In this document: positions 4,366 to 5,058 of the stretch, piece by piece | Layout of the letters: every line of letters starts with the position of its first letter | Numbering within the stretch: the first letter of the stretch is position 1 | From: Patescibacteria group bacterium | GTDB lineage: Bacteria; Patescibacteriota; Minisyncoccia; Phycocordibacterales; Phycocordibacteraceae | Length of the DNA: 64,000 nt | Reading direction: 5' to 3' | Assembly: GCA_004322365.1 (NCBI GenBank) | Contig: SCTS01000007.1 | Coordinates: 18,266-82,265 of the forward strand | The notes under the pieces: generated by a model | Told to the model about the DNA's origin: nothing | Database searches by the model: none | What the model saw: the letters and a program-made list of their open reading frames with translations, nothing else | Made by a program: the position numbers and the translations under genes

Positions 4366-4440
4366 AGGTTCTAGGGACTAGGTTTTAGGTGCTAGCTTTC
4401 GGATTTAAAGCTAGAAGCTAGCACCTGTAACCTGACCTCA
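4366..4440. repeat. modular intergenic repeat (AGGTTCTAGGGACTAGGTTTTAGGTGCTAGC ... AGCTAGAAGCTAGCACCTGTAACCTGACC)
   Basis: Same module vocabulary as 3121-3152 and 18504-18538. Flanks the membrane-protein gene on the side opposite 3121-3152. Confidence 0.6.
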
Positions 4441-5058
4441 ACGGCGGCCAATGATGGTACGGTGTTTGAATTCCAAGACATCGCGAAGCATTCGGTCGCG
4501 TGCCTCAAGACGCTCGGCATACTCTTCCTTTTCTAAAACAGCGTAGCGAAGTGGAAGTGCAGACATGCGCTCAACAGCTCGTACTGATGTCGCAATGCGT
4601 GGATTGTTTGGTTTTTTAGTTACAATCAAAATATCAACCACTCCTCTCTCCTCTCCAGTAAGTACACCCGCAACAACGAGGAGCGTAATACCAGAGACAC
4701 CTCTGAATGCTGACGCAATTGAAGAATCTTCAGGGAGAGTTACGGAATCAAGAAATGTACGAAAAGGAACAGCAAACGGATGCGTTGTATTCAAACTCCA
4801 CAGTATATTTTTACCCTGTGTTCGTGAAGTGAGAATCCGATAATTCTTAAGTGCGCGTAATTCACGCACTGTGACGGCTTTTGGGATGCCTGTGGTGTTT
4901 GAAGCAACAAGGGTAGTTATACGAGAATCTGGCTGAAATAAGAAAAACTTCAAAAGCTTCAAACGCGGAATCGATGAGCAGAGTTGGATGATATCTTTGA
5001 ACATGCAGAGTATTGTACCTGCACCTTTCCGAAAGACCAAAAATCGCAGAAATGACAA
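4438..5058 (-). CDS. hypothetical protein: ArsR-like winged helix followed by a degenerate Pol-beta-type nucleotidyltransferase-like segment
   Basis: 206-aa ORF. Residues about 55-90 (IPKAVTVRELRALKNYRILTSRTQGKNILWSLN) resemble a wHTH recognition helix and wing. Residues about 120-150 (ITLLVVAGVLTGEERGVVDILIV) resemble a minimal-NTase hG[GS]...D.D motif with the second Asp lost. The true start may be internal (MFKD...). Confidence 0.55.
   Translation of the reverse strand: MSFLRFLVFRKGAGTILCMFKDIIQLCSSIPRLKLLKFFLFQPDSRITTLVASNTTGIPKAVTVRELRALKNYRILTSRTQGKNILWSLNTTHPFAVPFRTFLDSVTLPEDSSIASAFRGVSGITLLVVAGVLTGEERGVVDILIVTKKPNNPRIATSVRAVERMSALPLRYAVLEKEEYAERLEARDRMLRDVLEFKHRTIIGRR

What the first reader, a model, noticed from the sequence alone, without database searches (positions are those of the whole stretch)
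4438..5058. wHTH plus degenerate minimal-nucleotidyltransferase architecture in the putative regulator
The protein combines an ArsR-like recognition helix and wing with a segment matching the Pol-beta NTase hG[GS]…D.D motif. The second carboxylate is replaced (VDILIV). This suggests a ligand-sensing or inactivated NTase domain recruited as a regulatory module.
Basis: inference. Interest (0 to 1): 0.5.

Follow-up and report, generated by a model that had tools for sequence, protein, structure and literature searches.

The report
Winged-helix protein with dead nucleotidyltransferase domain
This gene encodes a small, probably DNA-binding protein whose second half is a nucleotidyltransferase fold that has lost its catalytic residues; it is a toxin-less, core-genome relative of a known winged-helix/nucleotidyltransferase partner of HEPN toxins and is conserved across one class of ultra-small (Patescibacteria) bacteria.

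Summary

The architecture is not new. All 84 family members examined match the PADLOC candidate-defence protein PDC-M05A, described in the literature as ArsR-like HTH plus KNTase-like NTase and paired with a HEPN protein. A profile-profile comparison with five plasmid PDC-M05A proteins gives 99.6% probability (E 1e-24).

Those relatives keep FGS and DxD. This family has a hydrophobic residue in place of the Ser in 84/84 members and lacks the first Asp in 83/84, half of them with Lys/Arg there.

No HEPN gene is present. In about 76 of 80 species genomes the gene sits between rplJ-rplL and a conserved 229-aa MscS-TM-like membrane protein gene. No CofE-like gene lies nearby.

The most likely function is a domesticated, catalytically dead antitoxin-type regulator. 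Its target is not established.

The parts
4438..5004 (-). CDS of the wHTH + pseudo-NTase protein (188 aa plus stop).
   Evidence: ORF list. Homolog N-termini all align to ATG 5004. 268 species genomes encode relatives, and 846 50%-identity clusters score E<=1e-10.
4741..5004 (-). N-terminal ArsR/SmtB-like winged helix-turn-helix domain (residues 1-88; a1-a2-a3-aR-wing-a5).
   Evidence: Median net charge is +8, with conserved basic positions 14, 16, 19, 37, 39, 42, 46, 47 and 59-61. There are no conserved Cys/His.
4441..4740 (-). C-terminal minimal Pol-beta nucleotidyltransferase-fold domain (residues 89-188), catalytically degenerate.
4663..4671 (-). Codons A112-G113-V114, the remnant of hG[GS]. 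G113 is invariant (84/84). The Ser/Gly position is hydrophobic or otherwise never S/G in 84/84.
4627..4641 (-). Codons V122-V-D124-I-L126, the remnant of DxD. Position 122 (first Asp) is K/R in 42/84 and acidic in 1/84. D124 (second Asp) is D in 82/84 and E in 2/84.
4465..4512 (-). Codons R165-K180, which hold the five invariant charged residues of the family-specific C-terminal block (R165, D170, R171, R174, D175; motif YR....DRLLRD..[DE][YF]). The conserved H181 codon (4462-4464) lies just outside this range.
   Evidence: Only D170 and the following P-H are shared with PDC-M05A.
5012..5040 (-). Own promoter: -35-like TTGGTC (5035-5040), a 17-nt spacer, then -10 TACAAT (5012-5017) ending 7 nt before the ATG. 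This implies a leaderless or near-leaderless mRNA.
   Evidence: Read from the sequence. A -10-like box ends 4-12 nt before the ATG in 67/82 orthologs against 2.5% of random positions.
5194..5233 (-). Intrinsic terminator of the upstream rplL gene, which separates this gene from the rplJL transcript.
   Evidence: Equivalent terminators are present in most orthologous loci.
4380..4433 (-). Stable hairpin starting 5 nt after the stop codon. It is probably a 3'-end or terminator-like structure with no U-tract.
   Evidence: RNA fold gives -27.1 kcal/mol, z -4.3.
3570..4259 (-). Conserved downstream neighbour: a 229-aa membrane protein with two MS_channel_1st_1 (PF05552) TM-helix units. It lies immediately downstream in about 76/80 orthologous loci.
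   Evidence: Pfam. NCBIfam 'msc' gives a partial match below cutoff. Synteny table.

Best explanation
The gene encodes a 188-aa two-domain protein: an ArsR-type winged helix-turn-helix followed by a minimal Pol-beta nucleotidyltransferase (MNT) fold that can no longer catalyse nucleotidyl transfer.

It belongs to the same superfamily as PDC-M05A, the wHTH-MNT component of HEPN/MNT toxin-antitoxin-like (candidate defence) gene pairs. In Paceibacteria (Parcubacteria) the branch has lost the HEPN partner, the Ser of hG[GS] and the first Asp of DxD. It has become a single, vertically inherited core gene fixed between rplJ-rplL and a conserved MscS-TM-like membrane protein gene.

Shown: both folds, the homology, the loss of catalytic residues, the absence of HEPN, the synteny, and the gene's own leaderless-type promoter.

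Inferred: it acts as a nucleic-acid-binding regulator, most likely a transcriptional repressor acting through the basic wHTH. The dead NTase domain would serve as an oligomerisation, ligand-binding or partner-binding module through its family-specific invariant charged residues (E145, R165, D170-R171, R174-D175, H181). Its most plausible targets are its own promoter and/or the adjacent membrane-protein gene.

The confidence given (0.55) is for the whole statement including the inferred regulator role; the structural and evolutionary part alone I would put at about 0.9.
For: - Homology to PDC-M05A: window protein E 3.3e-10 over residues 14-187. 84/84 family members hit, best E 1.9e-23. hhalign to five plasmid M05A proteins gives 99.6%, E 1.2e-24.
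- The M05A proteins keep FGS and [ST]DID, 3/5 pass Pfam Polbeta/NTP_transf_2, and each has an overlapping HEPN/M05B gene downstream.
[quoted passage not shown] PDC-M05 = NTase + HEPN (PMC12988326).
- Inactivation: the Ser position is never S/G (84/84), and the first-Asp position is K/R in 42/84 and acidic in 1/84.
- No HEPN-like gene in the window or in 90 loci.
- Synteny L10-L12-[this]-MS-like holds in about 76/80 species genomes down to 24% identity.
- Own promoter.
Against: - No DNA target has been identified. No operator-like motif is conserved family-wide upstream of the gene.
- The conserved motifs in front of the neighbouring membrane gene look like a DnaA box plus an extended -10, not a dimer operator.
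- The only palindrome near the gene is a dispersed repeat.
- The NCBIfam ArsR model scores far below its cutoff (18.6 vs 55 bits).
- Dimerisation, DNA binding and ligand binding are untested.
- Conserved adjacency may reflect frozen gene order in reduced genomes rather than a functional link.
- D124, and in most of the family E151, are retained, so some residual metal or nucleotide binding cannot be excluded.
Confidence: 0.55

Rival explanations
1. Non-transcriptional adaptor. The wHTH and dead-NTase domains bind RNA or protein rather than an operator. One version is a ribosome-associated factor, given the fixed position after rplJ-rplL and by analogy with the inactive NTase-fold ribosome silencing factor RsfS/MALSU1. 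Another is a cytoplasmic partner or gate of the adjacent MscS-TM-like membrane protein.
For: - Invariant position after rplJL and before the membrane gene in about 76/80 genomes.
- The strongest conservation is in a charged C-terminal surface, not in the recognition helix.
- No operator was found.
Against: - The rplL terminator and the gene's own promoter uncouple it from the ribosomal operon.
- The basic ArsR-like wHTH is typical of DNA binders.
Confidence: 0.2
2. It is still an active nucleotidyltransferase that uses a non-canonical active site, for example D124, E151/E145 and basic residues.
For: D124 is retained in 82/84 members, E151 in 56/84, and E145 is invariant. The fold is intact with high model confidence.
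Against: - The first Asp of DxD is absent in 83/84 members and is Lys/Arg in half.
- The Ser/Gly that contacts the phosphate is never S/G.
- In the window's own clade E151 is Pro.
- Every intact homolog examined keeps GS and DxD.
- No Pfam NTase model is matched.
Confidence: 0.07
3. It is an orphan antitoxin or part of a mobile defence/toxin-antitoxin module (a PDC-M05-like system), with the downstream membrane protein acting as the toxin or effector. Hailong's NTase plus ion-channel pair is a loose precedent.
For: - Clear homology to PDC-M05A.
- An antitoxin-like wHTH plus neutralising-domain layout, upstream of a small membrane protein.
Against: - No HEPN/M05B-like gene is present.
- The membrane protein has no PADLOC hit.
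- The pair is universal, syntenic and vertically inherited next to ribosomal genes in 268 species genomes. The membrane protein is 44-100% identical. That is the opposite of the patchy, mobile distribution of TA and defence modules.
- The NTase is dead, whereas HalB and MNT antitoxins need activity.
Confidence: 0.05
4. It is the dedicated regulator of the CofE-like (F420-0:gamma-glutamyl ligase family) gene, acting through the shared 36-bp palindrome found upstream of both genes. This is the link the first reader implied.
For: The same palindrome, TATAGTATAAT.TAACG-NN-CGTTA.ATTATACTATA, lies upstream of this gene (5078-5116) and of the CofE-like gene (53880-53915). It recurs at both places in two related genomes.
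Against: - The palindrome has 46 distinct copies in two related metagenome genomes and is always intergenic.
- 12/40 copies sit between convergent genes, usually 20-90 nt after a stop codon.
- It is absent from most of the family's loci and from the CofE upstream region in L092.
- No CofE-like gene lies within 5 kb of any ortholog.
Confidence: 0.05

Closest known systems
PDC-M05A (PADLOC candidate defence system PDC-M05: wHTH-nucleotidyltransferase M05A + HEPN protein M05B)
   Same: Both have about 190-200 aa and the same two-domain order (ArsR-like wHTH, then minimal NTase). Homology is detectable over the full length (hhalign 99.6%, E 1.2e-24, 188 columns; 84/84 members hit the PADLOC models). 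They share the N-terminal LF.S..R..LL motif, the Y..N..(F)P motif and the C-terminal P-H.
   Different: - M05A keeps FGS and [ST]DID, passes the Pfam Polbeta/NTP_transf_2 models (3/5 tested) and is followed by an overlapping HEPN gene on plasmids and in archaea.
- The window family has lost the Ser and the first Asp and has no HEPN partner.
- It has gained invariant R165, R171, R174 and D175.
- It is a core chromosomal gene of Paceibacteria next to rplJL and a membrane-protein gene.
MNT antitoxins of type VII HEPN-MNT toxin-antitoxin systems (MntA SO_3166 / 5yep, HI0073 / 1no5, 7ae2, 8xeh)
   Different: Those proteins are active AMPylating enzymes with GS, DxD and a third Asp, and they are paired with a HEPN RNase toxin. 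Here the catalytic residues are lost, HEPN is absent and a wHTH is fused.
ArsR/SmtB family metalloregulators (SmtB, CzrA, CadC)
   Different: There are no conserved Cys/His/Asp metal sites (a3N, a5). The match is below the NCBIfam family cutoff. An NTase-fold domain follows a5, whereas ArsR/SmtB proteins end there.
Catalytically inactive NTase-fold binding proteins (RsfS/Iojap/MALSU1; MafI2 immunity protein)
   Different: There is no detectable sequence relationship and no wHTH, and their partners differ (ribosomal uL14; MafB toxin).
Hailong (HalB nucleotidyltransferase + HalA DNA-gated ion channel)
   Different: HalB is an active, protein-primed poly-dA synthase. HalA is unrelated to the MS_channel_1st_1 protein by any test run here. 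Hailong is a sporadic defence system, not a core syntenic pair.

Membership tests
Pol-beta superfamily nucleotidyltransferase (minimal NTase / MNT) | alpha-beta-alpha-beta-alpha-beta NTase core fold | tested here: met
Pol-beta superfamily nucleotidyltransferase (minimal NTase / MNT) | hG[GS] motif at the end of strand 1 | tested here: not met
   G113 is invariant, but the following [GS] position is L/I/V/A/T/M/F/H/P in 84/84 members. Register taken.
Pol-beta superfamily nucleotidyltransferase (minimal NTase / MNT) | [DE]h[DE]h pair of metal-binding carboxylates on strand 2 | tested here: not met
   The first position is K/R in 42, S in 16, other residues in the rest, and acidic in only 1/84. 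Only the second (D124) is retained.
Pol-beta superfamily nucleotidyltransferase (minimal NTase / MNT) | Third carboxylate on strand 3 | tested here: inconclusive
   The E of the M05A 'rEhN' motif aligns to position 151, which is E in 56/84 but Pro in the window and its clade. The equivalent residue in M05A itself is not uniformly acidic.
Pol-beta superfamily nucleotidyltransferase (minimal NTase / MNT) | Match to Pfam NTP_transf_2 / Polbeta above threshold | tested here: not met
   No hit for the window protein. 1/84 members hits NTP_transf_2, at E 0.025.
PDC-M05 (PADLOC candidate system) | M05A-type protein (wHTH + NTase) matching the PADLOC M05A models | tested here: met
   Window protein E 3.3e-10 over residues 14-187. 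84/84 members match. hhalign 99.6%.
PDC-M05 (PADLOC candidate system) | Adjacent M05B / HEPN-domain gene | tested here: not met
   The downstream gene is an MS_channel_1st_1 membrane protein with no PADLOC hit. tblastn with an M05B protein finds nothing at E<3 in the window or 90 loci. By contrast 5/5 plasmid M05A genes have an overlapping ~150-aa gene downstream. One of these was tested against the PADLOC M05B models and matches, and one (Rhodococcus) is both annotated as HEPN and passes Pfam HEPN.
PDC-M05 (PADLOC candidate system) | Anti-phage or toxin-antitoxin activity | not testable with these tools
   Only literature on other members is available. One PDC-M05 gave some protection in E. 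coli.
ArsR/SmtB family transcriptional repressor | Winged-helix a1-a2-a3-aR-b1-b2-a5 fold | tested here: met
ArsR/SmtB family transcriptional repressor | Family model above curated cutoff | tested here: not met
   NCBIfam NF033788 scores 18.6 bits against a cutoff of 55. There is no Pfam HTH_5/HTH_20 hit for the window protein.
ArsR/SmtB family transcriptional repressor | Inducer (metal or thiol) sensing residues in a3N or a5 | tested here: not met
   No conserved Cys/His in residues 1-88. The only exception is a His at position 77 in 40% of members.
ArsR/SmtB family transcriptional repressor | Binding to an inverted-repeat (12-2-12-type) operator at a regulated promoter | tested here: inconclusive
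   A 13-2-13 (up to 23-2-23) palindrome lies upstream in the close clade only, and it is a dispersed repeat. No family-wide operator was found.

The most novel reading that the evidence does not exclude
A toxin-antitoxin or defence-derived wHTH-MNT protein has been domesticated into a core, class-wide factor of Paceibacteria. In this reading its dead NTase domain still binds a nucleotide or small ligand, or the cytoplasmic face of the neighbouring MscS-TM-like channel protein. It would thereby couple a cellular signal to expression or gating of that membrane protein. That would be a conserved pseudoenzyme-channel module in organisms with very few regulators.
Probability: 0.15. Interest if true: 0.6.

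Novelty: new variant of a known kind. Interest (0 to 1): 0.35.

Why it matters
Patescibacteria have very small genomes and few recognisable regulators, so a regulator-like gene kept in the same place in hundreds of species is likely to matter for their biology. This family shows a concrete evolutionary route. The wHTH-nucleotidyltransferase half of a HEPN/MNT toxin-antitoxin-type pair lost its toxin partner and its catalytic residues and was kept as a core gene.

It also gives annotators a name for a currently 'hypothetical' family with no Pfam model for its C-terminal domain. That family has 846 50%-identity clusters at E<=1e-10. The result warns that PADLOC PDC-M05A-type hits in Patescibacteria are not defence systems.

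The finding does not reveal a new fold, a new architecture or a new mechanism.

Tried and rejected
1. Direct sequence searches of the C-terminal domain against Pfam, NCBIfam and PDB (single sequence and profiles of 23 and 84 sequences) gave nothing meaningful. The only PDB 'hits' were designed TIM barrels, which are spurious.

2. hhalign against a four-sequence MNT alignment built from PDB alignments was weak (P 0.015, probability 3%). The bridge came only through PADLOC PDC-M05A.

3. The whole-protein fold searches were swamped by wHTH hits. The C-terminal domain had to be modelled alone.

4. I considered the upstream palindrome as an autoregulatory ArsR-type operator and as a link to the CofE-like gene. 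I rejected it as specific evidence after the metagenome scan showed a dispersed REP-like repeat in all gene orientations.

5. I looked for a family-wide operator upstream of the gene. Only rplL terminators and the promoter turned up.

6. A k-mer search of the intergenic region before the membrane gene found a DnaA-box-like TATCCACA and an extended -10, not a dimer operator.

7. I checked whether the locus is near a replication origin. The window shows no GC-skew switch, and the locus is far from the sequence start in three complete or chromosome-level records, which is only a proxy for the origin.

9. A Hailong-like relationship was considered. It is only a loose analogy.

Full report
**What is at the coordinates.** The finding's ORF lies on the minus strand. 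The mechanical ORF runs 5058..4438 from a TTG (206 aa). All 27 close homologs begin at the equivalent of the ATG at 5004 (MF[KQ]D...). A -10-like TACAAT (5012-5017) ends 7 nt before that ATG, with a TTGGTC 17 nt further upstream. A -10-like hexamer ending 4-12 nt before the start codon is present in 67 of 82 orthologous loci against 2.5% of random positions. The protein is therefore most likely 188 aa and translated from a leaderless or near-leaderless mRNA. A strong intrinsic terminator (5194-5233) ends the upstream rplL transcript. A stable hairpin (4380-4433, -27 kcal/mol, z -4.3) follows the stop codon. The organism is a member of the Patescibacteria (Paceibacteria/'Parcubacteria'), judged from the names of the closest genome records.

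- GlnE and kanamycin NTase.

**The bridge to a known family.** A scan of the PADLOC library showed that the window protein matches PDC-M05A over nearly its whole length (E 3.3e-10, residues 14-187). All 84 family members do so, with a best E of 1.9e-23. The literature describes PDC-M05 as a nucleotidyltransferase (M05A) plus a HEPN-domain protein, typical of toxin-antitoxin modules and enriched in archaea (PMC12988326). [quoted passage not shown]

I retrieved five M05A genes from plasmids of Mycobacterium, Burkholderia, Legionella, Bradyrhizobium and Rhodococcus. Each is followed by an overlapping ~150-aa gene. The Mycobacterium partner, the one tested, matches the PADLOC M05B models. The Rhodococcus partner is annotated as HEPN and passes Pfam HEPN. 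Three of the five M05A proteins pass the Pfam Polbeta and NTP_transf_2 thresholds. A profile-profile comparison of the window's family with these five gives 99.6% probability, E 1.2e-24, over 188 columns spanning both domains. Against the M. avium protein alone it gives 97.5%, E 8.6e-12. The two-domain architecture is thus inherited, not newly assembled.

**Which catalytic residues are lost.** All five M05A proteins have hFGS and [ST]DID. In the alignments (hmmsearch and hhalign, MAFFT) the correspondences are:
- G113 of the window protein aligns with the Gly of GS;
- V114 aligns with the Ser;
- V122 aligns with the first Asp;
- D124 aligns with the second Asp;
- L126 is the normal hydrophobic residue after DxD, and the strand then ends in the shared Gly (IVG / VIG).

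Across 84 members:
- the Ser position is never S or G;
- the first-Asp position is K or R in 42, S in 16, and acidic in only one;
- D124 is D in 82 and E in 2;
- the position aligned to the Glu of the M05A 'rEhN' strand is E in 56 but Pro in the window and its close relatives.

The NTase centre is therefore disabled throughout the family, and more so in the window's clade. The family has instead acquired an invariant charged block near the C-terminus: R165, D170, R171, R174 and D175, plus E145 and a mostly conserved H181. Only D170 and the P-H are shared with M05A.

**Distribution and context.** A scan of one genome per species found 268 genomes encoding a relative. The named records are almost all Patescibacteria lineages, apart from a few unclassified MAGs and two very short contigs under other names. 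An exhaustive profile search found 846 50%-identity clusters at E<=1e-10. In the 80 loci retrieved, the order ribosomal protein L10 - L7/L12 - this gene - a 229-aa membrane protein is kept in about 76, down to 24% identity of the wHTH-NTase protein. The membrane gene stays immediately downstream even in the few genomes where rplJL is elsewhere. The membrane protein carries two PF05552 'MS channel conserved TM helix' units. It matches half of an NCBIfam mechanosensitive-channel model below cutoff and is 44-100% identical across the set. No HEPN/M05B-like gene is detectable in the window or in any locus, and the membrane protein has no PADLOC match. This universal, syntenic, single-locus pattern is the opposite of what mobile toxin-antitoxin or defence modules show.

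**The CofE suggestion and the palindrome.** No CofE-like gene lies within 5 kb of any ortholog. The window does contain a CofE-like gene (53943-54650, Pfam F420_ligase). A near-identical 36-bp perfect palindrome lies upstream of it (53880-53915) and upstream of the finding's gene (5078-5116). The same pairing holds in two related genomes. This looked like a shared operator.

A scan of metagenome contigs then found 46 distinct copies in two related genomes. All are intergenic. Of the 40 with neighbours on both sides, 23 lie between co-directional genes, 12 between convergent genes and 5 between divergent genes. They usually sit 20-90 nt after a stop codon. The palindrome is also confined to the window's close clade. 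It is therefore a dispersed REP-like or 3'-end hairpin element (RNA fold about -19 kcal/mol, z -6), not evidence for a regulator-target link.

**How it most likely works.** The folds, the homology, the loss of catalytic residues and of HEPN, the synteny and the gene's own promoter are shown. The function is inferred. The basic ArsR-type wHTH, and descent from a family in which the wHTH-MNT protein is the antitoxin-side, presumably autoregulating component, make a nucleic-acid-binding regulator the best reading. The dead NTase domain would then serve as an oligomerisation, ligand-binding or partner-binding module through its new invariant charged surface. The adjacent membrane-protein gene and the gene's own promoter are the obvious candidate targets.

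I found no operator, however. The conserved elements in front of the membrane gene are a DnaA-box-like TATCCACA (35/79 loci against 0/79 controls) about 29 nt upstream of an extended -10. These point to other factors.

The rivals are:
- a non-transcriptional adaptor, ribosome- or channel-associated;
- a residual non-canonical enzyme;
- an orphan antitoxin or defence module;
- a dedicated CofE regulator.

**Novelty and verdict.** The architecture is already known and annotated in its active, HEPN-linked form. What is new is modest: a large, Pfam-less, catalytically dead, HEPN-less branch that has become a core syntenic gene of Paceibacteria. I rate it a new variant of a known kind, interest 0.35.

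Noticed in passing
window 5078-5116 and 53880-53915; loci L094-L135: A dispersed 36-bp perfect palindrome, TATAGTATAAT[CT]TAACG-NN-CGTTA[AG]ATTATACTATA. It has 2 copies in the window and 46 distinct copies in two related metagenome genomes. All copies are intergenic and occur in all gene orientations, mostly 20-90 nt after stop codons. It is REP-like, and neither its function nor any binding protein is known.
   Followed up: partly
window 4350-4357 (minus strand TATCCACA) and 4316-4324 (TGCTACCAT): A DnaA-box-like TATCCACA lies about 29 nt upstream of an extended -10 in front of the MS_channel_1st_1 membrane-protein gene. The TATCCACA motif is present in 35/79 orthologous intergenic regions and 0/79 control regions, and some loci have 2-3 boxes. 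This suggests DnaA-dependent control of that gene. A small covarying hairpin follows in the 5' UTR.
   Followed up: partly
window 5005-5017 and orthologous loci: The gene appears leaderless: the -10 box ends 7 nt before the ATG and there is no Shine-Dalgarno. This is conserved in 67/82 orthologs.
   Followed up: yes
window 4260-4275 and orthologous loci: In many genomes the start codon of the membrane-protein gene is preceded by ACCTC[TC]. This resembles the anti-Shine-Dalgarno sequence rather than a Shine-Dalgarno.
   Followed up: no
window 52675-54650: A cluster of a Vut_1 vitamin-uptake transporter, a RibD_C/DHFR-like reductase and a CofE-like ligase, conserved in three related genomes (L091-L093). 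The best NCBIfam match of the ligase is TIGR04132, 'putative folate metabolism gamma-glutamate ligase' (below cutoff), not F420 CofE. That points to folate-type rather than F420 chemistry.
   Followed up: partly
window 59517-59563, 33695-33738, 48631-48668: Three further long perfect palindromes (19-23-nt arms, 0-2 nt spacer). One abuts the tRNA at 59434-59520 and one looks like a bidirectional A-run/T-run terminator.
   Followed up: no
window 1-2751 (minus strand): The 5' part of a 23S rRNA gene lies about 800 nt downstream of the membrane-protein gene. Many orthologous contigs end about 2 kb beyond this locus, probably because the rRNA breaks assemblies.
   Followed up: no
window 7711-11208 and 6774-7559 (minus strand): A 1165-aa protein with an N-terminal peptidoglycan-binding domain and a TPR protein are kept upstream of rplJ in the closer relatives. 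This extends the conserved block.
   Followed up: no
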